From positions 2,175,616-2,239,615 of the forward strand of contig CBDCYF010000005.1 in assembly GCA_965224065.1 (NCBI GenBank): a stretch of 64,000 nt of DNA, read 5' to 3'. The translations under genes and the position numbers were made by a program. Numbering within the stretch: the stretch's first letter is position 1; the number at the start of each line of letters is the position of its first letter. This stretch comes from Candidatus Multivoradales bacterium (lineage in GTDB: Bacteria > Acidobacteriota > Thermoanaerobaculia > Multivoradales > JAHEKO01). The notes under the pieces were generated by a model. It was not told the origin of the DNA. It made no database searches and saw nothing but the letters and a program-made list of their open reading frames with translations. Shown here in pieces: positions 1,840 to 58,790 of the stretch.

Positions 1840-1950
1840 GACGGCTGGCAGGGTCGCCAGCCGCTTCAGCCAGGTACCCGCATGTCGTGCCCCTGAAGCG
1901 GCCGGCGCCCCTGCCGGCCGTTAGGTCCGGCGCCTCTGCCGGCCGTTCAG
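1840..1950. repeat. cluster of GC-rich REP-like hairpin modules (GCTGGC..GCCAGCCGCTTCAG; CTGAAGCGGCCGGC..GCCGGCC)
   Basis: Intergenic between the YcaQ-like and DUF5916 genes. The same GAAGCGGC-stem-loop modules recur in six other intergenic sites in the window. Confidence 0.45.
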
Positions 1951-1998
1951 CCCGCGCTCTGCCACCCCGTCCGAGTTGAGTATGCTCTCGGTCGCGTC

Positions 1999-25780: not shown

Positions 25781-25783
25781 TGC

Positions 25784-25940
25784 GGCGGGCCGGGGCAAGC
25801 CCGGCCCCTACAAAATTGAAGCGGCCGCCGCCTCTGGCGGCCGGCGGGCCGGGGCAAGCCCGGCCCCTACAAGATCGAAGCGGCTTGCACGCGGGACTGA
25901 AGCGGCCGGACCTGTGCCGGCCGTTTGGGCCGGCGCCCAG
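25784..25940. repeat. REP/BIME-like cluster: 2 x GGGCCGGGGCAAGCCCGGCCCCTACAA hairpin + GAAGCGGCCGCCGCCTCTGGCGGCCG hairpin
   Basis: Intergenic between convergent abgT-like and TrxR-like genes. 8-bp GC stem with GCAAG loop. Confidence 0.5.
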
Positions 25941-28717: not shown

Positions 28718-28721
28718 AACG

Positions 28722-29045
28722 GCGCGGCTTCTGCCGACCGCCGGGCGGGGGCAAGCCCCGCCCCTACAAGAAATGACCTCTGAAGCGGCCGCCGCCTCTG
28801 GCGGCCGTCGGGCCGGGGCAAGCCCGGCCCCTACAGGAAGGGGTGCCGCCAAGGGTGCGCCCGTCGGAATCGAAGATGTAGGGGCGGGGCTTGCCCCCGC
28901 CCGACAATGCACCCAACCCGACGTCTACCCGTTGGCCGAACGCAGGGCCGGATCCGCCGGCGTTCCCGCCAGGCGGATATGATGCCCGAAGCGGCCGCCG
29001 CCTCTGGCGGCCGTCCGGCCGACGCCTCCGCCGGCCGAACCGCCA
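28722..29045. repeat. REP/BIME-like cluster (3 GCAAG/CTTGC-loop hairpins + 2 GAAGCGGCCGCC..GGCGGCCG hairpins)
   Basis: Same modules as at 25.8 kb, 39.4 kb, 40.4 kb and 58.4 kb. Forms the left boundary of the DUF1566 island. Confidence 0.5.
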
Positions 29046-29056
29046 GAGGAACCGCT

Positions 29057-29347
29057 ATGCCGACCTTTATCGTTCTGCTCGACTACACCGACCAGGGAAT
29101 CCGCAACCTGAAGGACTCTCCCCAGCGGGCCGACGCCTTCAACGAATTTGCCGAAAAAGCCGGCGTCAAGATCCATAGCCAGTACTGGACCATCGGCAAC
29201 CACGACGGAATCTTCATCATGGAGGCACCGTCCGAGGAGGTCGCGGCTTCGGTGCTCCTTCACCTCGGAGCGGGCGGCAACGTACGCACGACGACCCTGC
29301 GCGCCTACGACTGGGCCGAGGCTCAAGACCTGATCGAAGCGGGCTAG
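29057..29347 (+). CDS. GYD-domain protein
   Basis: 96 aa from ATG 29057: MPTFIVLLDYTDQGIRNLKDSPQRADAFNEFAEKAGVKIHSQYWTIGNHDGIFIMEAP... The upstream part of ORF 28907..29347 runs through REP repeats and is discounted. Confidence 0.6.
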   Translation: MPTFIVLLDYTDQGIRNLKDSPQRADAFNEFAEKAGVKIHSQYWTIGNHDGIFIMEAPSEEVAASVLLHLGAGGNVRTTTLRAYDWAEAQDLIEAG

Positions 29348-29366
29348 CGACCCGTACTAGAGACGG

Positions 29367-29999
29367 TCACTGGCCGCCGCGAACCGGCCAGACGACGTTG
29401 CCGTTGGTCTTGCCGCCGCGCCCGACGTGGCCGACGTTGAGGAATACCTCCCAGGCGAGGGTGTGGTTGTCGGTGGCGGTCGTCGACGTCCAATAACGGA
29501 ACAGCCACGTCACGCCGTAGAAGCTGCTCGGGCCGTTCACCCAGCAATCACTGCCGCTGTCATTCGTAATCGTCGGTGGCGATGCGGTGCAGTCCGGGTC
29601 GCCCACAAAACCCAGAGCGTCGGAGACCATCCTCTGCCACTCGGCGGCCGTCGGCAGTCGCCACTCGCCGGGAGAGGATTTGTCACCCAAGCCACAGTCC
29701 TGGTCGGCCAACGGGCTGCCAAGGCGCTGGGGGGGAAGATCCGACAAGTTGGCGACGATCTCCGTCGCCTCGTGCCATTCCATCGGGCCGTAGCAGTCCG
29801 CGTTCTTGAGCCACACCAGCCCGGTGCGGTTGTCCGTCACCGTTCCGTTACCGCAGTCGACGTAAATGTCGCCACTGTTGTCCGGGCAGGCCGGGTCGGC
29901 GGTCTGCAACGCCACCATCCCGTCGCCCCCGAGCACCGGCGCGGCGCCCGGCCACAACAGCATGAATCCTGATACCAACGCTCCTGCCCATTTCATCAT
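29367..29999 (-). CDS. secreted DUF1566 (Lcl C-terminal-like) domain protein, paralog 1
   Basis: Signal peptide, then DCGNGTVTDNRTGLVWLKNA...GEWRLPTAAEWQRM...YWTSTT...AWEVF...VVWPVRGGQ, matching the DUF1566 pattern. Confidence 0.65.
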   Translation of the reverse strand: MMKWAGALVSGFMLLWPGAAPVLGGDGMVALQTADPACPDNSGDIYVDCGNGTVTDNRTGLVWLKNADCYGPMEWHEATEIVANLSDLPPQRLGSPLADQDCGLGDKSSPGEWRLPTAAEWQRMVSDALGFVGDPDCTASPPTITNDSGSDCWVNGPSSFYGVTWLFRYWTSTTATDNHTLAWEVFLNVGHVGRGGKTNGNVVWPVRGGQ

Positions 30000-30209
30000 C
30001 GACGGTCCTCCGGTTGTTGGCTCCCCCTAACCTCTACAACGCAAACGGGGAGCCGTTTGGATCAAACGAAGGGTCGGGGGGCGCCAGGCCGGAGAGATGA
30101 ACAGGCGGCAACCCAGGTATATTCTTGCTCCAGCCAGTTACTCATGACGCAGACCCGTGCAACCGCAAACACGCGCCGGCGCACGGGGCCTCGGCAAGGA
30201 GGTCCTTCG

Positions 30210-30803
30210 ATGCAGCAATCCACTACCGCAGCGGCCATTCTCTTCGCGCTACTGTCGTGGCCCCTGGCGGCCGACGACGGCGCCGAAGCCAGCCGGCAGA
30301 CGGCCTTGGACATGATCGAGGCCATCAACGAGCGCGACCTCGATGCACTGGATACCGTCGTCGCGCCGAACATGGTCCGGCACAGCGCCGCCACACCGGG
30401 AGCCACGATCGAGAGCCTCGATCAGTTCAAGGCTTTCTTGACCGAGGACTTCAAGGCGGTACCCGATTCCCAGGTGACGGTAGACACCCTCTTAGCCACC
30501 GAGAACATGGTCGCGATCCGAGCGATCTATGCCGGCACCCAAACCGGACCCATGGGGCCATTTCCACCCAGCGACAAGAAAGTCGAGCTGCCCTTTCTCG
30601 GCATCCTGCGCATCGAAGCCGGAAAGATCGTCGAGATGTGGGTCGAGTGGGACAACCTGTACATGCTGACTCAACTCGGCCACTTTCCGCCGCCTGATGC
30701 GGAGCCGGCCGCGGACAACCGGTGCGAGGCCTGCAAGATGCATGACCGTCAGCACGATGCGGCCTGCGCTCACGGCGGCTCCCACACGCCCGACGGGCCA
30801 TGA
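30210..30803 (+). CDS. secreted SnoaL-like/NTF2-fold protein
   Basis: ATG at 30210 gives MQQSTTAAAILFALLSWPLAADDG signal peptide, then an NTF2/SnoaL-like domain. The ORF-track start (TTG 30057) is probably too far upstream. Confidence 0.5.
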   Translation: MQQSTTAAAILFALLSWPLAADDGAEASRQTALDMIEAINERDLDALDTVVAPNMVRHSAATPGATIESLDQFKAFLTEDFKAVPDSQVTVDTLLATENMVAIRAIYAGTQTGPMGPFPPSDKKVELPFLGILRIEAGKIVEMWVEWDNLYMLTQLGHFPPPDAEPAADNRCEACKMHDRQHDAACAHGGSHTPDGP

Positions 30804-31276
30804 CCCGTTCCGGGCGGGATCGAGCCGCGGTTCGGGTCCCACCACCACTCGTCTTTGTGCTCGTGGTCGCCGCCGGGTTCTTCCTCCACCGATCGCTCCA
30901 GCCCCTACCTCTCGGGCTTCCCGATGGGCTGCGCAAAGCGGCTTCCGCGGTCACACTACTTTCCGGCGCCGGGCTCCTGGCATGGTCGCTGACGCTTTTT
31001 CTCAGGAGCGGTCAAGACCCGGCACCCTGGAAGAGCACTCCCGAAATGATCTTCAAAGGCCCTTTTCGGTTTAGCCGCAACCCCATGTATCTGTCGATGG
31101 CCTTACTCCAGATCGCCGCCGGTCTCTGGTACTCAAACAGCTGGATCCTGGGCTTGCTGCCCTTAGCGCTTTTTTGCGTCTACCGGACGGCCATCCGCCA
31201 CGAGGAAGCGTACTTGGAGTCCAAATTCGGGGACTCGTACCGGGAGTACAAGGCCGAAGTGCGGAGATGGATCTAG
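30800..31276 (+). CDS. isoprenylcysteine carboxyl methyltransferase (ICMT)/phospholipid methyltransferase-family membrane protein
   Basis: 158 aa. ATGA overlap with the upstream gene. Motifs GPFRFSRNPMYLSMAL and HEEAYLESKFGDSYREY are typical of the ICMT/PEMT family. Confidence 0.65.
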   Translation: MTRSGRDRAAVRVPPPLVFVLVVAAGFFLHRSLQPLPLGLPDGLRKAASAVTLLSGAGLLAWSLTLFLRSGQDPAPWKSTPEMIFKGPFRFSRNPMYLSMALLQIAAGLWYSNSWILGLLPLALFCVYRTAIRHEEAYLESKFGDSYREYKAEVRRWI

Positions 31277-31392
31277 GGCCTAGGGCTCTAGGCTCGGATC
31301 GATTTCGGCGGCAAACACGTCTCCCTCGACCGAGAACTCGTTCGTAAGCCGAATTTCCTGTCCAGCGCAAGCCAAAGGCTCCCAAGAGCCAA

Positions 31393-32070
31393 TCATTGTC
31401 CGCCGCGAACCGGCCAGACATAGTAGGTGCTGGCCTTGTTGCTAATGCTGAAGGCGCCGTTGGCGAGGAACACGGCCCAAGCGCTCGTGGGGAAGGGGAC
31501 ATCGGTTCTAGCCGACCAATAGAAGGTCGACACCACGCCGGTAAAACTACAAGTCCGACCCGAAAGAAAACACACGAGAGGATCGGCCCAGCAACCGGTC
31601 CCCTCATCGTCGGTGATCGCAGGACTGCAAGCCAACACGTTTGGCGACATCATCGCCTCCCACTCCCCCACCGATGGCAACCGCCACTCCCCGGGCGACG
31701 AACCGTCCGACAGACTGCAGTCTTGCGCCGCAGCAGCCGACGTCGCCGGCTCGTCTGACAGACCGGCCACGAACTCCATCGCCGTATGCCAGTCCACTTG
31801 GCCCGGCGGGGCACCAACCCCACCGCCGGCAGAACCGATACAGTTCGCGTCCTGCAGCCATACCAGCCCCGTCCAGTTGTCCGTCACCGTGCCGTTGCCG
31901 CAGTCGATGTAGCGGTCGCTGTTCGTCGGGTCCGCACACGACGGGTCCGCGGTCTGTAGTGCGACCACCCCGTCGCCCGCCCAGGCTGCCGAAACGCCCC
32001 ACAACAGACAACAGAGCAGACAAGCCAAAGCAGTGGTACCTCTCGATCTCGTGATGCTGTAGTGCCTCAT
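31393..32070 (-). CDS. secreted DUF1566 domain protein, paralog 2
   Basis: MRHYSITRSRGTTALACLLCCLLWGVSAAWAG signal peptide. DUF1566 motifs. GGAGGG RBS 6 nt upstream of the ATG. Confidence 0.7.
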   Translation of the reverse strand: MRHYSITRSRGTTALACLLCCLLWGVSAAWAGDGVVALQTADPSCADPTNSDRYIDCGNGTVTDNWTGLVWLQDANCIGSAGGGVGAPPGQVDWHTAMEFVAGLSDEPATSAAAAQDCSLSDGSSPGEWRLPSVGEWEAMMSPNVLACSPAITDDEGTGCWADPLVCFLSGRTCSFTGVVSTFYWSARTDVPFPTSAWAVFLANGAFSISNKASTYYVWPVRGGQ

Positions 32071-32136
32071 CTCGAACCCTCCATTAGAAAAGCACCGTGG
32101 CAGCTACCCCGAAGGGCCAAGGCTCCCAAGAGCCAA

Positions 32137-32778
32137 TCATTGTCCGCCGCGAACCGGCCAGACATAGGCGGTGCCGGACTTGCTGCCGGCGACGAGGATG
32201 CCGCCAAGGTTCGCGCCCAACGCGAACGTTGGGTTGAGGACACTGGTACTAGCCGACCAATATAACTCCGACAGCACGCCGGTAAAACTACAAGTCCGAC
32301 CCGAAAGAAAACACACGAGAGGATCGGCCCAGCAACCGGTCCCCTCATCGTCGGTGATCGCCGGATTGCAAGCCAACACGGTTGGCGACATCATCGCCTC
32401 CCACTCCTCCACCGATGGCAACCGCCACTCCCCCGGCGACGATCCGTCCGACAGACCGCAGTCGATCGATGCCACCACCGACGTCGACGGCTTGTCCGAT
32501 AGCCCCGCTACGAACTCCATTGCCGTGCGCCAGTCGTAGGCGCCGTCCAGACAGTTGGCGTTTGCAAGCCATACCAGCCCCGTGGCGTTGTCCGTCACCG
32601 TGCCGTTCCCGCAGTCCACGTACCGATCGCCGCTGTCGTCCGCGCACGACGGGTCCGCCGTCTGTAGTGCGACCACCCCGTCGCCCGCCCAGGCTGCAGA
32701 AACGCCCCACAACAGACAACAGAGCAGACAAGCCAAAGCAGTGGTACCTCTTGATCTCGTGATGCTGTAGTGCCTCAT
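32137..32778 (-). CDS. secreted DUF1566 domain protein, paralog 3
   Basis: N-terminal 47 aa identical to paralog 2. Mosaic middle. Divergent C-terminal 35 aa. Confidence 0.7.
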   Translation of the reverse strand: MRHYSITRSRGTTALACLLCCLLWGVSAAWAGDGVVALQTADPSCADDSGDRYVDCGNGTVTDNATGLVWLANANCLDGAYDWRTAMEFVAGLSDKPSTSVVASIDCGLSDGSSPGEWRLPSVEEWEAMMSPTVLACNPAITDDEGTGCWADPLVCFLSGRTCSFTGVLSELYWSASTSVLNPTFALGANLGGILVAGSKSGTAYVWPVRGGQ

Positions 32779-32826
32779 CGCGAACCCTCCACTAGAAAAG
32801 CACCGTGGCAGCTACGCGCCAACCTC

Positions 32827-32860
32827 TGAAAGAAAAAGCAGGGGGGCTCACGCCCCCTGC
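32827..32860 (-). terminator. rho-independent terminator downstream of DUF1566 paralog 4
   Basis: Minus-strand RNA GCAGGGGGCGUGAGCCCCCCUGC followed by UUUUUCUUUCA: a perfect 9-bp GC stem plus U-run. Confidence 0.5.
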
Positions 32861-32894
32861 ACCCTCCCGAAGAGCCAAAACTCCCAAGAGCCAA

Positions 32895-33563
32895 TCATTG
32901 TCCGCCGCGAACCGGCCAGACATAGTAGTCGGCGGCCTTGGCGCCGCCGCCGACGGTGCCGAAGCTGAGGAACGCGACCCAGGCGGTCGACGGGACGCTG
33001 ACCCTGGTACTAGCCGACCAATAGATGGACGACACCACGCCGGAAAACGAGCAAGCACCCACGGTCACACACGCCACGTCCCAGCAGCCATTGCCGGCGT
33101 CGTTCGTGATCGTAGGGTCACAACCCAAGGCAACCGCATCGGCGACCATCGCCTCCCACTCCTCCACCGATGGCAACCGCCACTCCCCAGGCGACGACCC
33201 GTCCGACAGACCGCAGTCGTGCGCAGCAGCAGACCCCGCCGGCTTGTCCGACAGCCCCGCCACGAACTCCATTGCCGTGCGCCAGTCCACTTCGCCCGGC
33301 GGGGTACCAACTCCACCGCCGGCAGAACCGATACAGTTCGCGTCCTGCAACCACACCAGTCCCGTGGCGTTGTCCGTCACCGTGCCGTTGCCGCAGTCGA
33401 TGTAGCGATCGCTGTTCGTCGGGTCAGCACACGACGGATCCGCCGTCTGTAGTGCGACCACCCCGTCGCCGGCCCAGGCTGCCCCAACGCCCAACGAGAG
33501 ACAACAGAGCAGACAAGCCAAAGCAGCGGTACCTCTCGATCTCGTGATGCTGTAGTGCCTCAT
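32895..33563 (-). CDS. secreted DUF1566 domain protein, paralog 4
   Basis: Near-identical N-terminus to paralogs 2 and 3. Ends WPVRGGQ. Confidence 0.7.
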   Translation of the reverse strand: MRHYSITRSRGTAALACLLCCLSLGVGAAWAGDGVVALQTADPSCADPTNSDRYIDCGNGTVTDNATGLVWLQDANCIGSAGGGVGTPPGEVDWRTAMEFVAGLSDKPAGSAAAHDCGLSDGSSPGEWRLPSVEEWEAMVADAVALGCDPTITNDAGNGCWDVACVTVGACSFSGVVSSIYWSASTRVSVPSTAWVAFLSFGTVGGGAKAADYYVWPVRGGQ

Positions 33564-33690
33564 CTCGAACCCTCCATTAGAAAAGCACCGTGGCAGCTAC
33601 GCCGCGCCGTAGAACGAAACTCAAGAAACGAGTCGTAAAAGCCCTATCACCGGCGAGGCCCCCCGAAGGGCCAAGGCTCCCAAGACCCAA

Positions 33691-34347
33691 TCATTGGCCG
33701 CCGCGAACCGGCCAAATATAGTAATCGGTGATCTTGGTGCTGATGATGCCGACGGTGCCGTCGCCGAGGTCCGCGAACCAGGCGCCCGTGGTGGGGAAGG
33801 TGACGACGACGGTACTAGCCGACCAATAGTGCGACGACACCACGCCGGTAAAACTACAAGTCCGACCCGAAAGAAAACACACGAGAGGATCGGCCCAGCA
33901 ACCGGTCCCCTGATCGTCGGTGATCGCCGGACTGCAAGCCAACACGTTCGCACCCGACATCATCGCCTCCCACTCGGCCAACGACGGCAAACGCCACTCC
34001 CCGGGCGACGAACCGTCCGACAGACCGCAGTCGTGCGCCGCAGCAGCAGATGACGCCGGCTGGTCCGACAGCCCCGCCACGAACTCCATCGCCGTATGCC
34101 AGTCGTAGGCGCCGTCCAGACAGTTGGCGTTTGCAAGCCATACCAGCCCCGTGGCGTTGTCCGTCACCGTGCCGTTCCCGCAGTCCACGTACCGATCGCC
34201 GCTGTCGTCCGCGCACGACGGGTCCGCCGTCTGTAGTGCGACCATCCCGTCGCCCGCCCAGGCTGCCCCAACGCCCCACACCATCAAAGCCGCGGCAAGC
34301 GAGCCACAAACAGTCATTCTCTGCGTCATCCCGGTCTCCTTCCTCAT
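33691..34347 (-). CDS. secreted DUF1566 domain protein, paralog 5
   Basis: Different signal peptide (MRKETGMTQRMTVCGSLAAALMVWGVGAAWAG) but the same domain. The start may be the internal Met. Confidence 0.65.
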   Translation of the reverse strand: MRKETGMTQRMTVCGSLAAALMVWGVGAAWAGDGMVALQTADPSCADDSGDRYVDCGNGTVTDNATGLVWLANANCLDGAYDWHTAMEFVAGLSDQPASSAAAAHDCGLSDGSSPGEWRLPSLAEWEAMMSGANVLACSPAITDDQGTGCWADPLVCFLSGRTCSFTGVVSSHYWSASTVVVTFPTTGAWFADLGDGTVGIISTKITDYYIWPVRGGQ

Positions 34348-34643: not shown

Positions 34644-34719
34644 TGGTAGCGCGTACGGGATTCGAACCCGTGTTACCGGCGTGAGAGGCCGGCGTCCTAG
34701 ACCCCTAGACGAACGCGCC
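34644..34719 (-). tRNA. tRNA-Glu(CUC): tRNA-Glu (anticodon CUC)
   Basis: Reverse complement GGCGCGTTCGTCTAGGGGTCTAGGACGCCGGCCTCTCACGCCGGTAACACGGGTTCGAATCCCGTACGCGCTACCA. Aligns position-by-position with bacterial tRNA-Glu (D-arm TCGTCTAGxGGxxxAGGAC, T-arm GGTTCGAATCC). Anticodon loop CUCUCAC gives CUC. CCA is encoded. Confidence 0.85.
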
Positions 34720-34784: not shown

Positions 34785-34975
34785 CGGCTTCCAAACGGCC
34801 GCCAGAGGCGGCGGCCGCTTCAGAGAGTTGTGCGCGGCGCGGGGCCGCCAGCCGCTTCAGGGAGCCGTGCACGACACAGGACCGCCGGCCGCCAGCCGCT
34901 TTAGGGAGCCGTCGGCCGCCAGAGGCGGCGGCCGCTTCAGAGAGCTGTGCGCGGCGCGGCACCGCCGCCGGCATC
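34785..34975. repeat. REP-like cluster: four alternating GGCCGCCAGAGGCGGCGGCCGCTTCAG / GCCGCCAGCCGCTT modules
   Basis: Between tRNA-Glu and the formamidase gene. Forms the right boundary of the DUF1566 island. Confidence 0.45.
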
Positions 34976-36044
34976 AGGGAACGGCAGGCGCCTCAAAGAT
35001 GCTCTTGGGCAGGTGCATGGCCACCAGCATGTGGGGCACGTCGACGGTCTCGGCGATTTTCAGGTCGCCGGCCAGCGAGCAGAGCATGTAAGCGTCGTTC
35101 CGGCTGAGGCCGCGGGTCTCGACGAGGTAGTCGATCATGTATCGGGTGGCCTTTTTCGCCGCCTCGTCGATGGTGGTGGCAAAGCCGGTGGTGGCGTAGT
35201 AGGTGTCGGTCTCGTACTGGGGCTCTTGGATGGACCGGTCGCCCTCGACCACGCTGACCCGGTAGACGATCCGCATGGGGGTCTCGATGGCGGTGCCGGA
35301 GACTTCACCCAGGCCCTGTGCGCCGTGGGTATCGCCGATCGAGAACAGCGCGCCCTCGACAAAGACCGGGAAGTAGACGGTGGTGCCGGCCACCAGGTGG
35401 GGGTCGTCCATGTTGCCGCCGTTAGCGCGCGGCGGGATGGTGTTCAGCATTTCATCGGTGTCCGGGGCCACGCCCATGACACCGGGAAAGGGCCGAAGCG
35501 GAACGGTGATGCCTTCGGCGTACTCCAGAACGCCTCGCTCTTTGTCGAGTGGAAAGATCTTGAGCACCGACTCCTGGAACTCCTCCGCCAGGAAGCCAAA
35601 GCCCGGGGCGATGGCCATCCAGCCCCAGTCGGCGGTCTCGAGTTCGAGCAACTCGACCGCCAGGACATCGCCCGGCCGGGCGTCTTCGACATAGACCGGT
35701 CCGGTCAGGGTGTGAATCCGGTCCATGTCGAGGGTGGCGAGATCGTCTGGGGTCGAGTCGGGGCCGAACTGGCCGCCGGTGGCCTCGTGGGTGGAGACTT
35801 CGATGACGCTTCCCGAGGGAACACGGATGGCGGGCGGGATCGAGCGGCTGAACTTGTCGTGGGTCTGATCGGCGGTGAGGACGAAATCGGGCTCGGGGAC
35901 CTTCGACTCCGCTGCCGGTTCCGCCGCGGGCGCCGGCTCGGAAGCCGTCGGGGCCTGGGTGCAGGCGCCGAGAAGCACCAGGCAAACGGCCACGGACGCG
36001 CAAACGGCGCCGACGTCGAGACGAGGATTGTTGGACGTCATCAT
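34974..36044 (-). CDS. acetamidase/formamidase (FmdA_AmdA)-family lipoprotein
   Basis: 356 aa. Lipoprotein signal MMTSNNPRLDVGAVCASVAVCLVLLGAC. Strong FmdA/AmdA family pattern (GPVYVEDA, GGNMDD, FSIGDTHGAQG). Confidence 0.75.
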   Translation of the reverse strand: MMTSNNPRLDVGAVCASVAVCLVLLGACTQAPTASEPAPAAEPAAESKVPEPDFVLTADQTHDKFSRSIPPAIRVPSGSVIEVSTHEATGGQFGPDSTPDDLATLDMDRIHTLTGPVYVEDARPGDVLAVELLELETADWGWMAIAPGFGFLAEEFQESVLKIFPLDKERGVLEYAEGITVPLRPFPGVMGVAPDTDEMLNTIPPRANGGNMDDPHLVAGTTVYFPVFVEGALFSIGDTHGAQGLGEVSGTAIETPMRIVYRVSVVEGDRSIQEPQYETDTYYATTGFATTIDEAAKKATRYMIDYLVETRGLSRNDAYMLCSLAGDLKIAETVDVPHMLVAMHLPKSIFEAPAVP

Positions 36045-39401: not shown

Positions 39402-39404
39402 CGG

Positions 39405-39525
39405 CGCGGGCCGGGGCAAGCCCGGCCCCTACACGGTCGAAACGAGTGCGAAGCGGCCGGCGCCTCTGCCGGCCGTTTGGGCCGCCGCCCCTGGCGGCCG
39501 TTCGGACACCGCAACCAGCCGGTGA
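39405..39525. repeat. REP/BIME-like unit (GGGCCGGGGCAAGCCCGGCCCCTACA + CGAAGCGGCCGGCGCCTCTGCCGGCCG modules)
   Basis: Intergenic murI-rph. Confidence 0.5.
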
Positions 39526-40382: not shown

Positions 40383-40650
40383 CGGGCTCACTCGTGTAGG
40401 GGCAGGGCTTGCCCCGGCCCAAACGGCCGCCAGAGGCGGCGGCCGCTTCAGAGACAGTCCAATGTTGAAGCGGCTGGCGACTCTGCCAGCCGGTAAGGCG
40501 GCGGCGGCTTCTTTCTTTAGGTAGGGGCCGGGCTTGCCCCGGCCCAAACGGCCGCCAGAGGCAGCAGCCGCTTCAGAGACAGTCCAATGTCGAAGCGGTT
40601 GGCGACTCTGCCAGCCGGTAAGGCGGCGGCCGCTTCAGATCCTTCGGGCT
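40383..40650. repeat. two tandem ~123-bp composite REP/BIME-like units
   Basis: GTAGGGGC(A/C)GGGCTTGCCCCGGCCC + GGCCGCCAGAGGC(G/A)GC(G/A)GCCGCTTCAG + GAAGCGG(C/T)TGGCGACTCTGCCAGCCGG, repeated twice. Confidence 0.5.
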
Positions 40651-40657
40651 TCCGCCG

Positions 40658-46056: not shown

Positions 46057-46668
46057 ATGAAACGCCCCGATCGGTCGTCTGAAGTCGACCTCCTTTTCGA
46101 CCTGCCGCTCGAGAAACCGGACCCCCACACGGCGGCGGACGATATCGCCGACTTCGACGCCGACTTTGTCGAGGTCCAGAAACCGCTGGTCTTCGAATCG
46201 ACCTCCGAGCCGGATCCCGCAGGCGAGACCAAGGTGCCGCCCTTTGCGGGGCGGAGCGCTTCCGAGCCGCCGGTCTCATCGCGTTTTCTCGCCGCGATCC
46301 TCGATCTCGGAACGGTCGCGGCAGGCGTCGCGGTGGCGCTGGCGGCCGCCGCCCTCCTCGGCGCTCGCCCCCACCCCGCGGCGTGGCCGCCGTTTGTGCT
46401 TTTTGGACTGTGTTTTTCCTTTCTCTACACCGTCGTTCCACTGGCCTTCTGGGGCAAGACACCCGGGATGGCCTACGCCGGGATCGTCAGCCGCGGCAAG
46501 GACGGGCTGCCGCTGACCATTCCGCAGACGGTTCTCCGGTGGCTCGGTCAGATGATCGTCTACGCCGGAGCCGGGCTGCCCGCGCTCCTCGCCCTGAGCG
46601 GCGTGTCGCTCTCCGACCTGCTCAGCCGCTCGCGCGTAACGATCGACGACTCACCGGCTACGCAGTAG
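46057..46668 (+). CDS. RDD-family membrane protein
   Basis: 203 aa, C-terminal RDD-like TM domain. The stop TAG (46666-68) lies inside MITE-derived sequence. Confidence 0.6.
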   Translation: MKRPDRSSEVDLLFDLPLEKPDPHTAADDIADFDADFVEVQKPLVFESTSEPDPAGETKVPPFAGRSASEPPVSSRFLAAILDLGTVAAGVAVALAAAALLGARPHPAAWPPFVLFGLCFSFLYTVVPLAFWGKTPGMAYAGIVSRGKDGLPLTIPQTVLRWLGQMIVYAGAGLPALLALSGVSLSDLLSRSRVTIDDSPATQ

Positions 46669-46873
46669 ATTCCCGGTGAGAACGTCTGGCTAGCCTGACT
46701 TTCTCACCAACCTCCGGCCCGAAGGCCGGAAATGCCTGAATCTACTGCGTTGCGCTCCCATCGGGCTCCTCGACGTAGCTACGGCTACGCCTGCGTCGCC
46801 CTCGGTCGCAAGCCTTGCATCTCCAGGCATTTGCAGCCTTCTGCCTCGAACGCTGGTGAGAAAGTCAGGCTAG
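46661..46873. mobile_element. MITE-like element, copy 1 (184-bp core 46690..46873 with 19-bp terminal inverted repeats CTAGCCTGACTTTCTCACC / GGTGAGAAAGTCAGGCTAG, plus partial extra end 46661..46689)
   Basis: Perfect 19-bp TIRs. Internal sequence ~85% identical to the inverted copy at 50290..50472. No ORF. Internal long palindromic structure. Confidence 0.7.
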
Positions 46874-47463
46874 GGAATCGTTCCCTCCAGCAGCAGCCGG
46901 CCGACCTCGGCGATGAGAGAGCGGCGCCTTTGCTCGCCGAACAGCTTGACGTCGCGGCTGAGATTGGCCAGTAGACCCAGGCCCACGAGGGCCCACGCCG
47001 CTTGCTCGGCGTCGAGCGCACTCGCCCCCTTCCGCCGCTCGCCATGCTCTTCGATCCGGCCGCTGATTTCCTTGTGGAAGCTGTGGAACATGCGGCGCAG
47101 CGCGGTCCGGATCTCGGCGTCATCCGCCTCGCTGAGCCCCGCAAAAATGATGCGGTAGAGGCCGAATTCCCCCAAGTGGCGGGACTCGTACTCCAAAAGC
47201 CGCTCGGCGCGGCTTCCCCCCTCACCGGGTCGGTCGAGGACCTCTTGCCAGATACGGGCGGAATTCTGGTAGACGTGCTCGATCGCCGCCAGGAACATCT
47301 CCTTTTTCCCGGGCCAGAGCCGGTAGAGAATCGTCTCCTGGACGCCACAGGCTTCAGCCAGCTCCGCGGTCGTGGTGCGCCGATACCCTCGTTCCACAAA
47401 ACACTGCGCGATAACGGGCAGTAGCTTGGCGCGCTTTTCCTCGCTCAGGTTGGGTCTGGCCAC
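46870..47463 (-). CDS. TetR/AcrR-family transcriptional regulator
   Basis: N-terminal HTH RRTTTAELAEACGVQETILYRLWPGKKEMF. The stop codon lies inside the MITE TIR. Confidence 0.8.
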   Translation of the reverse strand: MARPNLSEEKRAKLLPVIAQCFVERGYRRTTTAELAEACGVQETILYRLWPGKKEMFLAAIEHVYQNSARIWQEVLDRPGEGGSRAERLLEYESRHLGEFGLYRIIFAGLSEADDAEIRTALRRMFHSFHKEISGRIEEHGERRKGASALDAEQAAWALVGLGLLANLSRDVKLFGEQRRRSLIAEVGRLLLEGTIP

Positions 47464-47549
47464 GATGGTCTCCCAGGATCTCCGTTGCTGGCACGAATGG
47501 ACGACAGCACGAAGATCATACCGGGGCCATACTGGATAAGATCCCTCCA

Positions 47550-49247
47550 GTGCGTATCGCCGCGCTCGCCCAAATTGTCCTACTCGGCCTTTGCGCAGCC
47601 ATAGGCTTGCTGGGCACTTTCGCGGTCGCGAGCGACTGGATCCGAGGTCTCGACACCTGGTTCTGGGAAGAGACGGTTTGCACGATCGAGTCGTCCGAGG
47701 CGGTGCGGCGCCCGCAATACGGGGACACCGAGCTCCAGGTCTCGTACCGGTACGACCACCGTGCCCAACCCTACTTGGGAAACGCCTACCGCCACGGCTA
47801 TGCTGGGTCCGAGACGGTCTCCGAGGCCCAGGTTCTGGCCGGGCGGTATCGAGCCGGCGACAAAGTGACGTGCTGGGTCGACCCGGAAGAGCCCGGCCGA
47901 TCGTATCTGCGCCGGTCCAATCTCTGGGAAGGGTTTTGGATCCTGGTGCCCCTGGTCTTTCTGGCCGTCGGGGCCGGTGCCCTCTGGCTGTTGCACGGCC
48001 CTCCTTCCCGAACCGACGGGGAGGAGACCGCGGGCGACGGCCCGTTGCCCAAGAAGGCCCGCTCCGGACTGGCGGTCGCCGCGATCATCTTCTTCCCCGG
48101 CATCTTCTTTCTGGTCGGCGCCGGTTTTCTGATCCCGTTTTTCATCTGGCCGGCTCTCCAAGTCGTCGAGGCCCGCTCCTGGCTCGAGGTGCCGTGCGAG
48201 ATCCTGTCGAGCGGGGTGCGGTCGCATCCGGGTGACGACAGCACCACCTACAGTGTCGATGCGCTGTATCGGTACGAGATCGACGGGCGTTCGTATCAAT
48301 CGAACCGCTACGGTTTCATGGGCGGTTCCTCCAGCGGCTACGAGCGCAAAGCCAGGATCGTCGCCGGGCTCGAGGAAGGAACCACCACGCTTTGCTACGT
48401 CGATCCGAACGACCCGTTCAATGCCGTCATCGAACGGGGCTTCACCGCCGATTACCTGTTTGGCGTCATCCCCCTCCTGTTCACGCTGATCGGCGCCGGT
48501 GGGCTCGTCTTCGTGATCAAGGGCCTGAGGGACGCCAGGCGGGACGCGGCACGCCCTTCCTGGGCCGCGCCCACCGAACCGGGCGATGCGCCGGCACTCG
48601 GCCGATTCGCCGCCGGTCCGACCCCGGAACAGCCGGTCACCGATTCTCTCGTGCTCGAACCGACGACGGGCCCGCTCGGCAAACTGGGGTGCACGATTCT
48701 CGGCGCGCTGTTCTGGAACGGTTTTCTCTCGATCTTCGTATGGCAGGTGGTCGAAAGTTGGAAGGCCGGAACCAAGGAGTGGTTCGTCATCCTGGTCCTG
48801 ACCCCATTTGTTCTCATCGGCCTGCTGCTGCTCGCCGGCATCCCCTATTCCATCCTGGCTCTCCTCAACCCACGCGCGCGCGTCAGCCTCACCCCGGGCA
48901 CTCTCCGGGTTGGTGAATCGGCTCAGCTCAAGTGGTCCTTCACCGGGTTTGCGAGCCGCGTCCGGCACCTCGAGGTCTGGCTCGAAGCCACCGAGACCCA
49001 AACCCATCACAAGGAATCGGGGGTTCGCATAGAAACAAGGCCTCTCGACACGCCCAAAGTCTCGATCCTGGACCGCGGGCGAGACCAACCACTGGAGTCC
49101 GGCGGTGTGACGTTCACGATTCCCACCGGCACGCCTCTTTCGTCCGACGGCGACCCTTCGATCGCCTGGAAGCTCAAGCTCCACGGCGAGATCGCCTACT
49201 GGCCCGACGTCGCCGAGGAGTACGAGGTGCGGCTGAGCGGGCTCTAG
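47550..49247 (+). CDS. membrane protein with two DUF3592-like modules
   Basis: Two repeats of the pattern TM helix - C..E/ILSS..v...YRY..dg..Y......ag..vtCwVDPeeP (DUF3592-like), plus extra TM helices. Confidence 0.55.
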   Translation: MRIAALAQIVLLGLCAAIGLLGTFAVASDWIRGLDTWFWEETVCTIESSEAVRRPQYGDTELQVSYRYDHRAQPYLGNAYRHGYAGSETVSEAQVLAGRYRAGDKVTCWVDPEEPGRSYLRRSNLWEGFWILVPLVFLAVGAGALWLLHGPPSRTDGEETAGDGPLPKKARSGLAVAAIIFFPGIFFLVGAGFLIPFFIWPALQVVEARSWLEVPCEILSSGVRSHPGDDSTTYSVDALYRYEIDGRSYQSNRYGFMGGSSSGYERKARIVAGLEEGTTTLCYVDPNDPFNAVIERGFTADYLFGVIPLLFTLIGAGGLVFVIKGLRDARRDAARPSWAAPTEPGDAPALGRFAAGPTPEQPVTDSLVLEPTTGPLGKLGCTILGALFWNGFLSIFVWQVVESWKAGTKEWFVILVLTPFVLIGLLLLAGIPYSILALLNPRARVSLTPGTLRVGESAQLKWSFTGFASRVRHLEVWLEATETQTHHKESGVRIETRPLDTPKVSILDRGRDQPLESGGVTFTIPTGTPLSSDGDPSIAWKLKLHGEIAYWPDVAEEYEVRLSGL

Positions 49248-49852
49248 TCCGTCCGATCCGAGCGATCCCGCCGCCGCACCCCCCAGGCCAGCCAGAGGTT
49301 GCCGGCCGCAGCCGCGATGGCGAACGCCAGCAGCGGGTCGACGCCCGGCACCAGCGCCGCCAGTCCGCCGATCTGGTAGATCAACCCGGCGGCGCGGAAG
49401 GGCGGAAATCCCAGTCCCCCGTGAGCGTAGAACGAGTGGCCGAGCACCAGCAGCCAGAGACCCGGCAGCAGGCTCGCCTGTCCGGCCCACAGCAACGCCA
49501 GGGAGAGAGCGATGGCGACGAGCGACAGATTTCCCTGGCTTCGCAGGACCCAGCGGGCGAGCTCGGAAGGCCGGTGTGCGCGAGAGCCGCGGAAGAGCAC
49601 GACGCCTTCGACCACTCCACCCAGCAGAATCGCCACCGACCACAGCAAGGTGACGGCGGCCACGCCGCCGGTCTCGACGCGCCGCGTCAGCAGGGCGGCG
49701 GCGGCCAGCACCACCGCCCACACCACCCAGGACAGAGGCGAGCGCAGAAAGCTCTCCGCCGAGCGGGAGAACTGCTCTCGAACCCGCTCGAGGTCGGACG
49801 GACCGGCGTTCAGGTCCGACGGTGGAACGAGCGGGTCGTAGTCGGAAGCCAC
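49244..49852 (-). CDS. hypothetical polytopic membrane protein
   Basis: 202 aa, five or more TM helices. Immediately downstream of atpC. Shares a CTAG stop overlap with the convergent DUF3592 gene. Confidence 0.4.
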   Translation of the reverse strand: MASDYDPLVPPSDLNAGPSDLERVREQFSRSAESFLRSPLSWVVWAVVLAAAALLTRRVETGGVAAVTLLWSVAILLGGVVEGVVLFRGSRAHRPSELARWVLRSQGNLSLVAIALSLALLWAGQASLLPGLWLLVLGHSFYAHGGLGFPPFRAAGLIYQIGGLAALVPGVDPLLAFAIAAAAGNLWLAWGVRRRDRSDRTD

Positions 49853-49860
49853 CGCGATGG

Positions 49861-50268
49861 CTACTTTTGCTTCTCGAGCAGCCTCAACTGGGTGCGCGCG
49901 CGTTTGAACACGCGCTCGCGCTGAGCGGCCGCACCGTCGGCGCGGTCCTTCATCTCGCGAGCTTCGGCCAGCAGCGCCTCGGCCTGCTCGCGGTCTAGTT
50001 CTTCGACCCGCCGCGCGTCCTCGGTCAGCACCGTCAGCCGGTTGTCGATCATCTCGACAAACCCGCCGTCGATAAAAAAGACCTCATCGCCTTCCTCGGT
50101 CTCGATCCGCAACCGGCCGACGTCGAGCTTGGCCAGGATGGGTGCGCGGCTGCGCAGAAAGCCCAGCTCGCCATCGTGCGCCGGCACGGCGACAAAACGA
50201 GCCTCGCCGTCGAAGACCGCCTTCTCGGGGGTCACGACGGCGACTTGGAAGCTCTTGGAATCGGCCAT
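49861..50268 (-). CDS. atpC: F1 ATP synthase epsilon subunit
   Basis: 135 aa, MADSKSFQVAVVTPEKAVFDGEARFVAVPAHDGELG. Confidence 0.85.
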   Translation of the reverse strand: MADSKSFQVAVVTPEKAVFDGEARFVAVPAHDGELGFLRSRAPILAKLDVGRLRIETEEGDEVFFIDGGFVEMIDNRLTVLTEDARRVEELDREQAEALLAEAREMKDRADGAAAQRERVFKRARTQLRLLEKQK

Positions 50269-50289: not shown

Positions 50290-51938
<1,649 letters not shown>

Positions 51939-58342: not shown

Positions 58343-58369
58343 GGAGAAAACGTAGCACAGGCAGGCGGA

Positions 58370-58790
58370 CGGGCGGGGGCAAGCCCCGCCCCTACATAAA
58401 CCAGTTGTCCGACCCGCAGTCTCTCTCGGTGTAGGGGCGGGGCTTGCCCCCGCCCGAGATCGGTTGAAGCGGCTGGCGACTCTGCCAGCCGGGGTTGAGA
58501 CACAACCATCGAACGGCCGCCAGAGGCGGCGGCCCAACGGCTCTCGGTGTAGGGGCGGGGCTTGCCCCCGCCCGAGATCGGTTGAAGCGGCTGGCGACTC
58601 TGCCAGCCGGGGTTGTGACACAACCATCGAACGGCCGCCAGAGGCGGCGGCCCAACGGCTCTCGGTGTAGGGGCGGGGCTTGCCCCCGCCCGAGATCGGT
58701 TGAAGCGGCTGGCGACTCTGCCAGCCGGGGTTGTGACACAACCATTGAACGGCCGCCAGAGGCGGCGGCCGCTTCAATCCTGAAGCTATC
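58370..58790. repeat. tandem array: 3 x 118-bp composite REP/BIME-like units (period 118; units at 58423, 58541, 58659) preceded by a partial unit
   Basis: Each unit has GTAGGGGCGGGGCTTGCCCCCGCCC + GAAGCGGCTGGCGACTCTGCCAGCCGG + GGTTGTGACACAACC + GGCCGCCAGAGGCGGCGGCC hairpins. Units 98-100% identical. Confidence 0.7.

What the first reader, a model, noticed from the sequence alone, without database searches (positions are those of the whole stretch)
46661..46873. MITE-like element with 19-bp perfect terminal inverted repeats supplying the stop codons of both flanking convergent genes
A 184-bp non-coding element (46690..46873) has TIRs CTAGCCTGACTTTCTCACC / GGTGAGAAAGTCAGGCTAG and a long internal palindrome. 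A second, inverted copy lies at 50290..50472 with ~85% core identity. The terminal CTAG places TAG on both strands. The TetR gene stops inside the right TIR (46870-72). The RDD gene stops at 46666-68 within an additional partial element end (46661..46689, CGCAGTAGATTCccGGTGAGAA), which abuts the left TIR head-to-head. This suggests nested or repeated insertion at this site and C-terminal remodelling of RDD.
Basis: seen in the sequence. Interest (0 to 1): 0.6.

Follow-up and report, generated by a model that had tools for sequence, protein, structure and literature searches.

The report
Stop-codon-seeking miniature transposon (MITE) copies
The two ~178-bp hairpin-forming repeats are copies of a small non-coding mobile element (MITE) of Acidobacteriota that inserts at the rare sequence CTAG; because CTAG contains the stop codon TAG on both strands, copies usually sit exactly on gene ends. 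This is a tidy but ordinary case of a known kind of element.

Summary
Copy 1 (46693-46870) and copy 2 (50293-50469, inverted) are 84% identical. Each has 16-bp terminal inverted repeats (GCCTGAnnTTCTCACC), is flanked by TA, and folds into one long hairpin.

A public genome scan found at least 30 further copies (~176-177 bp) at unrelated sites in several Acidobacteriota MAGs, almost always in the context cTA-element-TAg.

A relative that keeps the RDD and atp genes in the same order has "empty" sites. There atpD ends in gcCTAGtt with no element.

The stop-codon overlap is family-wide. Of 25 elements, 21 abut a TAG that ends an ORF of at least 100 codons, and 5 do so at both ends. The cause is target choice: CTAG is about 7-fold under-represented, and half of the free CTAG sites are already gene stops.

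Full-length insertion sequences with the same ends (one 16/16 identical) and the same TA flanks encode IS1380-family transposases, not IS630. One of these is in an Acidobacteriota MAG.

The 37-bp piece at 46654-46690 is a remnant of an older, copy-2-like element. It supplies only RDD's last ~4 codons.

No promoter, terminator or Rfam match was found. Verdict: a new member of a known kind, of modest interest.

The parts
46693..46870 (+). MITE copy 1 (178 bp, family 'forward' orientation). TIRs at 46693-46708 and 46855-46870. The whole element is an imperfect hairpin.
   Evidence: It aligns along its full length with 24 other copies (82% mean column identity).
46691..46692 (.). TA flank on the left of copy 1. 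It is shared with the terminus of the older fragment, giving the junction ...GGC-TA-GCC...
46871..46872 (.). TA flank on the right of copy 1. With C46870 it forms the TAG stop of the TetR-family gene on the minus strand.
46654..46690 (-). A ~37-bp remnant (the terminal, left-end part) of an older, copy-2-like element. Its terminus at 46690 abuts copy 1. It contains the RDD stop codon TAG at 46666-46668.
   Evidence: 30/37 identity to copy 2's left end, and homology ends after about 36 nt; the TIR matches with 2 mismatches.
46057..46668 (+). RDD-family membrane protein gene. Its last ~4 codons (A-T-Q-stop) lie in the element remnant.
46870..47463 (-). TetR-family regulator gene. Its stop codon is made of the junction TA plus the element's terminal base.
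50293..50469 (-). MITE copy 2 (177 bp, family orientation on the minus strand). It lies inside the F1Fo ATP synthase operon, between atpD and atpC. TIRs at 50293-50308 and 50454-50469, with TA flanks at 50291-50292 and 50470-50471.
   Evidence: The empty site in relative L051 is shown.
50469..51920 (-). atpD (ATP synthase beta subunit). Its stop TAG is the junction TA (50470-50471) plus the complement of C50469.
49861..50268 (-). atpC (epsilon subunit), downstream of copy 2 in the same operon. The hairpin must therefore be co-transcribed if atpC has no promoter of its own.
   Evidence: No promoter-like site was found.

Best explanation
These are copies of a non-autonomous DNA transposon (MITE) family of Acidobacteriota.

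Anatomy: about 177 bp, 16-bp terminal inverted repeats GCCTGA(nn)TTCTCACC, and an interior that forms one long imperfect hairpin.

Mechanism (inferred): the element is cut and pasted in trans by a DDE transposase of the IS1380 family. A clade of full-length IS elements of that family carries the same ends. Insertion occurs at the TA of a preferred 5'-CTAG-3' target and leaves TA on both sides. Whether 2 bp (TA) or 4 bp (CTAG) are duplicated is not settled.

Why it sits on stop codons: the element begins with G and ends with C, so CTAG is rebuilt at both junctions. In these 66% G+C genomes CTAG is rare, and about half of its occurrences are TAG stop codons. Insertions inside genes are also purged by selection. 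Surviving copies therefore sit exactly on stop codons, often on the shared CTAG of two convergent genes, and preserve those stops.

Repeated insertion: the rebuilt junction CTAG is itself a fresh target. This explains the head-to-head remnant next to copy 1. An older, copy-2-like element lay at the TetR stop. Copy 1 landed in its junction TA. A later deletion left 37 bp of the older element fused to the 3' end of RDD.

Shown versus inferred: multicopy status, TIRs, TA flanks, the CTAG context, the empty site at atpD, the stop-codon statistics and the TIR match with IS1380-family IS elements are shown. Mobilisation by that transposase, the order of events at the RDD/TetR site and any RNA-level effect are inferred.
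For: 1. Multicopy status and mobility. The genome-contig scan returned 50 loci. At least 30 carry full elements of ~176-177 bp at unrelated sites, in MAGs B78T1B8 (18 loci), Thermoanaerobaculia Mix_sand03 (14 loci), SF_Bin62 and SF_Bin12.

2. Flanks. 25 elements have TA on both sides. The base 5' of the left TA is C in 21 of 25, and the base 3' of the right TA is G in 23 of 25.

3. Empty site. Relative L051/L052/L053 (RDD 66% identical, with the RDD and atp genes in the same order) has no element. atpD ends in gcCTAGtt and a 17-bp spacer leads to atpC. The window's right flank aligns from that same TA.

4. Stop codons. In 21 of 25 elements an ORF of at least 100 codons ends in a junction TAG at one or both ends; in 5 of 25 this holds at both ends. 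Of 170 unoccupied CTAG sites in the same 324 kb, 85 end such an ORF on one strand and 5 on both (Fisher p = 0.002 and 0.004). The frame-specific signal is visible. The window has 29 free CTAG sites against about 199 expected from base composition, and 13 of them are ORF stops.

5. Cognate IS.
- L054 and L099 are full IS elements (1734 and 1845 bp) of the form TA-GCCTGATTTTCTCACC...GGTGAGACATGCAGGC-TA. They encode a 463-aa protein matching Pfam DDE_Tnp_1_4 (8.6e-138) and NCBIfam transpos_IS1380 (1.5e-95).
- IS copies fetched by protein homology alone (L101, L102, L105-L108) end in TA-GCC(n5)T(T/C)TCTCACC, mostly in cTA...TAg context. L106 is from an Acidobacteriota MAG.
- L069 has one end 16/16 identical to the MITE consensus TIR. 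Its other end abuts the TAG stop of a host gene.
- The MITE-rich MAG B78T1B8 holds a remnant of an IS1380-like transposase gene.

6. Remnant. It matches the copy-2-type left end at 30 of 37 positions. A similar arrangement of partial end, TA and full element occurs in L033.
Against: - No transposase is encoded in the 64-kb window (tblastn). The rest of the ~4-Mb source genome could not be retrieved, so an active partner in this genome is unproven.
- The IS elements share only the ~16-bp ends with the MITE, not the interior.
- As far as I recall, IS1380-family elements classically give 4-5 bp duplications (IS1247: 5 bp, PMC3281130). A plain 2-bp TA duplication would be atypical. The data here favour TA plus element-borne G/C, because the outer flank bases vary while the inner G/C stay constant in about 8 informative cases. 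They do not exclude a 4-bp CTAG duplication.
- The TA/CTAG behaviour is also the textbook signature of IS630 (Tenzen and Ohtsubo 1991, cited in PMC2170065).
- One IS end (L054/L099 left) was selected by my own DNA pattern, so its match to the TIR is not independent evidence. The other ends and loci L101-L108 are independent.
Confidence: 0.72

Rival explanations
1. It is the same kind of MITE, but mobilised by an IS630/Tc1-mariner-family transposase, the classical TA-duplicating and CTAG-preferring family, rather than by IS1380.
For: TA flanks and a CTAG context are exactly what is published for IS630 and ISY100 (PMC2170065 and the Tenzen and Ohtsubo 1991 title cited there). The 2-bp reading of the duplication is the one slightly favoured here.
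Against: Every full-length element found with these ends encodes an IS1380-family transposase. No IS630-type gene was seen next to such ends in about 0.5 Mb of fetched loci. This was not an exhaustive search.
Confidence: 0.12
2. It is an IS5-family derivative: either the IS427 group (2-bp duplication) or the IS5 group (4-bp CTAG/YTAA duplication, as for MITEPsy1).
For: MITEPsy1 of Pseudomonas syringae duplicates CTAG or YTAA (PMC3189936). IS427-group elements give 2-bp repeats (Table 2 of PMC3281130).
Against: No IS5-family element with these ends was found. The TIR sequence matches the IS1380-clade ends at 11-16 of 16 positions.
Confidence: 0.04
3. The element is mobile in origin but has been domesticated as an RNA or DNA structural module. 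The 177-nt hairpin at gene ends would act as a bidirectional transcription barrier between convergent genes, or as an mRNA stabiliser or RNase III processing site. Inside the atp operon it could tune the atpD:atpC ratio.
For: - Hairpin pairing is maintained across subfamilies: 94.4% of cells are paired, and 12 pairs show changes on both sides, a value reached by only 4 of 500 shuffles.
- Folding is very stable.
- The position immediately after stop codons, and inside an essential operon, is tolerated.
- Comparable roles are documented for other bacterial MITEs such as Correia, ERIC and REP (own knowledge; review PMC3184786).
Against: - There is no T-run terminator or promoter and no Rfam match even at E<=1.
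- Orientation relative to the upstream gene shows no clear bias: 11 forward against 6 reverse, counted by hand.
- The sites are empty in a relative.
- The covariation controls can be inflated by subfamily relatedness.
- Placement at stop codons is already explained by the CTAG target.
Confidence: 0.1
4. It is not mobile: a conserved orthologous intergenic regulatory sequence that happens to be duplicated.
For: Only two full copies are visible in the 64-kb window.
Against: There are dozens of copies next to unrelated genes in several MAGs, with TA flanks. A relative with the same gene order has empty sites.
Confidence: 0.01

Closest known systems
IS1380-family insertion sequences (transposase Pfam PF13701 / NCBIfam NF033539), specifically the clade represented here by loci L054, L069, L099, L101, L102 and L104-L108
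   Same: The terminal inverted repeat pattern is the same: TA-GCC(n5)TTCTCACC, with 16/16 identity to the MITE consensus in L069. The TA flanks and cTA...TAg context are the same. One IS also sits on a host gene's TAG stop.
   Different: The MITE is about 177 bp and encodes no transposase. Its interior is unrelated to the IS interior. The classical family members I recall give 4-5 bp duplications (IS1247: 5 bp, PMC3281130), whereas here TA, or possibly CTAG, flanks every copy.
IS630 / ISY100 (the Tc1-mariner superfamily in bacteria) and their MITEs, such as RUP of Streptococcus pneumoniae
   Same: Insertion at TA with TA on both sides, and IS630's published preference for TA within 5'-CTAG-3' (PMC2170065 and the reference it cites). 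It is also a small TIR-bounded non-autonomous element.
   Different: No IS630-family transposase was found associated with these ends. The TIR sequence matches IS1380-family elements instead.
Correia elements (Neisseria), ERIC, and Nezha (cyanobacteria): bacterial MITEs that fold into long hairpins and lie at gene ends
   Same: They are about 100-200 bp, have TIRs, form a stable foldback, are co-transcribed with neighbouring genes, are flanked by short target duplications, and show filled/empty site polymorphism (review PMC3184786).
   Different: The sequences and host phylum differ. Here a strict CTAG context places copies on TAG stop codons. No RNA-level function has been tested for this family.
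MITEPsy1 of Pseudomonas syringae (related to the IS5-family element ISPsy2)
   Same: It inserts at CTAG or YTAA (PMC3189936).
   Different: It is 100 nt long with different TIRs, shows a clear 4-nt duplication, and its partner belongs to the IS5 family.

Membership tests
MITE (miniature inverted-repeat transposable element) | Small size and no coding capacity | tested here: met
   The copies are 177-178 bp. All reading frames that enter the element hit stops within a few to about 180 nt. No ORF of at least 50 aa is confined to the element.
MITE (miniature inverted-repeat transposable element) | Terminal inverted repeats | tested here: met
   16-bp TIRs, perfect in copy 1. TIR columns are 92-100% conserved across 25 copies.
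MITE (miniature inverted-repeat transposable element) | Short target-site duplication flanking the copies | tested here: met
   TA lies on both sides in 25 of the ~34 TIR-bounded elements listed. Whether the duplication is 2 bp or 4 bp is unresolved.
MITE (miniature inverted-repeat transposable element) | Many copies at non-orthologous sites, with filled and empty alleles | tested here: met
   At least 30 copies in four or more MAGs. The atpD/atpC site is empty in L051-L053.
MITE (miniature inverted-repeat transposable element) | TIRs shared with an autonomous IS that can supply the transposase | tested here: met
   IS1380-family IS elements carry matching ends. Presence of such an IS in the source genome itself is not testable from the 64-kb window (none in the window).
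IS1380-family-derived non-autonomous element | Ends and flanks like those of IS1380-family IS elements | tested here: met
   11-16 of 16 TIR positions are shared, and the TA/CTAG flanks are the same in 9 IS loci.
IS1380-family-derived non-autonomous element | The family's usual 4-5 bp duplication and ends starting with CC (recalled from ISfinder; IS1247 5 bp in PMC3281130) | tested here: inconclusive
   If CTAG is the duplication, the ends read CC...GG and the length is 4 bp. However, the outer flank bases vary while the inner G/C do not, in about 8 cases. This favours TA plus an element-borne G/C.
IS1380-family-derived non-autonomous element | Transposase shown to bind or move the element | not testable with these tools
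   This needs a transposition or binding assay.
IS630/Tc1-mariner-derived MITE | TA target duplicated; CTAG preference (IS630) | tested here: met
   Literature: PMC2170065.
IS630/Tc1-mariner-derived MITE | TIRs shared with an IS630-family IS | tested here: not met
   All TIR-sharing full-length elements found encode IS1380-family transposases. The search was not exhaustive.
REP/BIME elements (RAYT-mobilised) | Palindromic units of about 20-40 nt without TIR or target duplication | tested here: not met
   The unit is 177 bp with TIRs and TA flanks. Separate REP-like repeats do exist elsewhere in the window.
Known structured RNA family (Rfam) or intrinsic terminator | A covariance-model match, or a hairpin followed by a T-run | tested here: not met
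   No Rfam hit at the gathering threshold or at E<=1. No terminator-like site lies in either copy.

The most novel reading that the evidence does not exclude
This may be a previously undescribed MITE family together with an IS1380 clade that differs from the classical family behaviour by inserting site-specifically at CTAG, with TA duplicated in the manner of IS630/mariner. The elements systematically colonise TAG stop codons, including the shared CTAG of convergent gene pairs. The hairpin, kept intact by compensatory changes, may have been co-opted as a bidirectional 3'-end or insulator module.
Probability: 0.15. Interest if true: 0.5.

Novelty: new member of a known kind. Interest (0 to 1): 0.3.

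Why it matters
- **Annotation.** In Acidobacteriota genomes and MAGs these copies overlap stop codons, can rewrite the last few codons of genes (as in RDD) and sit inside operons. Gene callers and comparative analyses should mask them.
- **Mechanism.** The case shows cleanly how target-site choice alone can make a transposon appear to donate stop codons. CTAG is a rare tetranucleotide that is half made up of TAG stops.
- **IS1380 family.** It links a MITE to the IS1380 family and points to a clade of that family with IS630-like TA/CTAG targeting. That would be worth a biochemical look.
- **Strain typing.** Presence or absence of these copies could serve as strain markers.

It does not open a new class of biology.

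Tried and rejected
1. **IS630 as the mobilising family.** This was my first hypothesis, based on the TA/CTAG flanks. I dropped it to a rival once every full-length element with these ends turned out to be IS1380-family.
2. **Source genome.** Exact-protein look-ups for atpD and RDD gave no retrievable contig. Only an unnamed 3,986,945-bp NCBI/ENA contig is on record. Genome-wide copy number therefore could not be counted.
3. **All-against-all BLAST of locus ORFs** to spot a repeated transposase. Nothing useful emerged.
4. **Listing long ORFs inside solo ends** was too noisy. It was narrowed by hand to 10 candidates, one of which was the IS1380 transposase.
5. **Plasmid collection blastn.** No match.
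6. **Composite transposon idea.** The two inverted copies bracket TetR, a 713-aa ORF and atpC. I rejected this because atpC is a core operon gene in its conserved position, and the far boundary of the variable segment (49722-49860) has no element.
7. **Strand-specific RNA function.** The orientation count of 11:6 gives no support.
8. **Promoter, terminator and Rfam scans** were all negative.
9. **Literature searches** for IS1380 with CTAG, or for MITEs derived from IS1380, turned up nothing directly relevant.
10. **Second, ~230-bp repeat family with the same TIR** (L056, L057, L061, L068, L074, L098). I first suspected an IS end, but it has no transposase.

Full report
**1.

- CTAGCCTGACTTTCTCACC (46690-46708) and GGTGAGAAAGTCAGGCTAG (46855-46873) are perfect reverse complements.
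- A search with up to 3 mismatches finds five such ends in the window, against 0.00 expected from shuffles: two for copy 1, two for copy 2 (50290-50308 and 50454-50472), and one extra at 46675-46693.
- The two copies are in inverted orientation and 84% identical overall (150/178). A 113-nt core is 90% matched.
- Each folds into a single long imperfect hairpin far more stable than shuffled sequence (-102 and -111 kcal/mol; z = -5.3 and -9.8).
- ORF ends are as stated. The RDD-family gene is 46057-46668. The TetR-family gene, 46870-47463 (-), has its stop on the element's terminal CTA.
Copy 2 therefore sits inside the F1Fo ATP synthase operon, between atpD and atpC.

**2. It is a multicopy mobile family**

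I made one scan of the 185,579-species genome collection with a half-element pattern, GCCTGANNTTCTCACCN{20,23}AAATG, which deliberately omits the flanking TA. It returned 50 loci.
- About a dozen are chance hits in unrelated phyla.
- The rest cluster in a few Acidobacteriota MAGs: "Acidobacteria bacterium B78T1B8" (18 loci), "Thermoanaerobaculia bacterium Mix_sand03" (14 loci), and two "Acidobacteriota bacterium" bins.
- These loci contain at least 30 full elements of 176-178 bp next to unrelated genes, plus shorter variants of 80-150 bp and solo ends.
- Twenty-five copies align end to end with 82% mean column identity and fall into subfamilies. The window's copy 1 resembles the Mix_sand03 type and copy 2 the B78T1B8 type.
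- The window's own genome is not among the species representatives. Its RDD protein is on record only on an unnamed 3.99-Mb NCBI/ENA contig that could not be fetched. RDD homologues are annotated as Acidobacteriota or Thermoanaerobaculia.

**3. Flanks and target**

- Nearly every copy is bounded by TA on both sides.
- Among the 25 copies with TA on both sides, the base before the left TA is C in 21 and the base after the right TA is G in 23. The preferred target is therefore CTAG.
- The element starts with G and ends with C, so CTAG is regenerated at both junctions.
- Where the outer bases differ from C or G, the inner G/C stay constant. The cases are L005, L007, L019, L027, window copy 2, and the IS copies in L099, L069 and L105. 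This favours a 2-bp TA duplication with G...C belonging to the element.
- A 4-bp CTAG duplication followed by drift of the outer copies cannot be excluded. A few inner-base variants exist (L050, L104, L108), and selection on stop codons could protect the inner G.

**4. Empty sites**

The closest RDD homologue (66% identity) lies on contigs L051-L053, which keep the same genes around the site: murC-like, TPR, RDD, and the atp operon from atpC upstream.
- There atpD ends in ...gcCTAGtt..., with a 17-bp spacer to atpC and no element.
- The window's sequence to the right of copy 2 aligns from exactly that TA. Copy 2 therefore inserted into the TA of the atpD stop codon.
- The RDD side is less informative. 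In the relative, RDD ends TAA, four bases before the TAA of an unrelated 197-aa convergent gene.

**5. Why the stop codons coincide**

This is a property of the family, not of this locus.
- Reading into each TA-flanked end, the frame in which TA+G forms TAG closes an ORF of at least 100 codons in roughly 38 of 68 ends. The other two frames give about 10 and 17.
- Per element, 21 of 25 have such an ORF at one or both ends, and 5 of 25 at both ends.
- The background explains most of this. CTAG is scarce, with 29 free sites in the 64-kb window against about 199 expected from composition.
- Of 170 unoccupied CTAG sites in the same 324 kb of loci, 85 already are the TAG of an ORF of at least 100 codons on one strand, and 5 on both.
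- The further enrichment (odds ratios 5.3 and 8.3; p = 0.002 and 0.004) is what purifying selection against intragenic insertions would produce.
- So the element does not donate stops. It seeks CTAG, which is often a stop and sometimes the overlapping stop of two convergent genes, and it rebuilds CTAG on both sides.

**6. The cognate transposase family**

I used the single metagenome scan with the TIR plus "anti-MITE" constraints: IUPAC not-codes at the positions where a 176-178-bp copy would have its second TIR.

Most hits were chance matches, truncated copies, or a second ~230-bp repeat family with the same TIR but a different interior (L056, L057, L061, L068, L074, L098).

Full-length IS elements found through this scan:
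- L054 and L099 are full insertion sequences (1734 and 1845 bp) with the structure TA-GCCTGATTTTCTCACC...GGTGAGACATGCAGGC-TA. They encode an IS1380-family transposase: Pfam DDE_Tnp_1_4 at 8.6e-138 and NCBIfam transpos_IS1380 at 1.5e-95.
- L069 is a third IS of the family (1714 bp). One end is identical to the MITE consensus TIR at all 16 positions. The other end supplies the last base of a host gene's TAG stop.

IS copies fetched by protein homology alone, and therefore not selected by any DNA pattern:
- L101, L102, L103 and L104 and L105-L108 end in TA-GCC(n5)T(T/C)TCTCACC, mostly in cTA...TAg context.
- L106 comes from an "Acidobacteriota bacterium" MAG (P0323).

Other points:
- The MITE-rich MAG B78T1B8 carries a remnant of an IS1380-like transposase gene interrupted by an IS3-family element.
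- No such transposase lies in the 64-kb window.
- I therefore assign the MITE to an IS1380-family clade rather than to IS630. IS630 has the same published target behaviour (PMC2170065, citing Tenzen and Ohtsubo 1991), and the assignment remains an inference from shared ends.

**7. The partial end and RDD**

- Positions 46654-46690, read from 46690 inwards, match the left end of the copy-2 type at 30 of 37 positions. The other three ends in the window match at 21-25 of 37. Homology stops after about 36 nt.
- Its terminus shares a single TA with copy 1's left terminus.
- Simplest history (inferred): an older, copy-2-like element sat on the TetR stop. Copy 1 inserted into the regenerated junction CTAG. 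A deletion then removed most of the older element and fused the remainder to RDD.
- RDD now ends ...IDDSPATQ* using a TAG inside the conserved CTACTGCG motif of the element. Its closest homologues end ...IDDRPRHQT* or ...DDRTGG*.
- The remodelling is real, but it affects only about 4 residues of a tail that varies across the family.
- A similar "partial end, TA, full copy" arrangement occurs in L033.

**8. Structure and possible function**

- The consensus hairpin is supported by covariation across subfamilies. 94.4% of cells are paired. Twelve pairs show changes on both sides, a value reached by only 4 of 500 shuffles. Sliding the pairing partners reduces pairing to about 35%. Subfamily relatedness inflates such measures.
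- There is no sigma-70-like promoter or hairpin-plus-T-run terminator in either copy, and no Rfam match even at E<=1.
- Orientation relative to the upstream gene shows no significant bias: 11 against 6, counted by hand.
- A co-opted RNA role (3'-end stabiliser, convergent-gene insulator, or tuning of the atpD:atpC ratio) is possible by analogy with Correia, ERIC and REP elements (PMC3184786). It is untested here.

**9. Verdict**

It is a new family-level member of a well-known kind: a bacterial MITE. It has two mildly interesting twists, a clean mechanistic explanation for sitting on stop codons and a likely IS1380-family partner with TA/CTAG targeting. Interest is modest (0.3).

Noticed in passing
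window 1888-1957, 25783-25885, 28703-29055, 34791-34980, 39404-39512, 40388-40654, 58360-58785: Two other families of short GC-rich palindromic repeats recur in intergenic clusters: GAAGCGGCCGCCGCCTCTGGCGGCCG-type and GGGCCGGGGCAAGCCCGGCCCCTACA-type. They look like REP/BIME-like elements and are unrelated to the MITE.
   Followed up: no
window 58423-58776: Three tandem copies of a 118-bp unit (93-100% identical). Each contains the TGTAGGGGCGGGGCTTGCCCCCGCCCGA palindrome (families D8 and D14).
   Followed up: no
window 29338-34255, with a tRNA at 34647-34719 (-): A run of repeated segments with a period of ~740-800 bp (63-97% identical; families D1-D7). This suggests a tandem array of paralogous genes ending near a tRNA gene.
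   Followed up: no
window 46873-49860 compared with L051 6626-7233: Between RDD and atpC the window carries a TetR-family gene plus a 713-aa ORF with no Pfam match (47580-49721, -). The relative with the same flanking genes has a single unrelated 197-aa gene there. This is a variable segment whose left border is the MITE site.
   Followed up: partly
L056 196, L057 6064, L061 12449 (-), L068 1447, L074 1893, L098 1194 (-): A second, ~230-bp non-coding repeat family in soil or sediment metagenomes has the same cTA-GCCTGAC(C/T)TTCTCACC end but a completely different interior (ACAGGAACGGGACCGCGCC...). It is probably another MITE served by the same transposase clade.
   Followed up: partly
L069 1087-1300: The 3' non-coding end of this IS1380-family IS starts with an internal inverted copy of the TIR (1285-1300) that overlaps the transposase stop codon. 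The last 214 bp therefore look like a ready-made MITE, a possible way such elements are born.
   Followed up: partly
L010 4372-4548 and L014 2449-2625: The same locus and the same MITE copy occur in two MAGs from one study, one binned as Acidobacteriota and the other as Gammaproteobacteria. This is probably a binning error.
   Followed up: no
L027 2442-4392: In the MITE-rich Acidobacteria MAG, an IS3-family element (orfA 3389-3883, orfB 2442-3389) has inserted into the end of an IS1380-like transposase remnant.
   Followed up: partly
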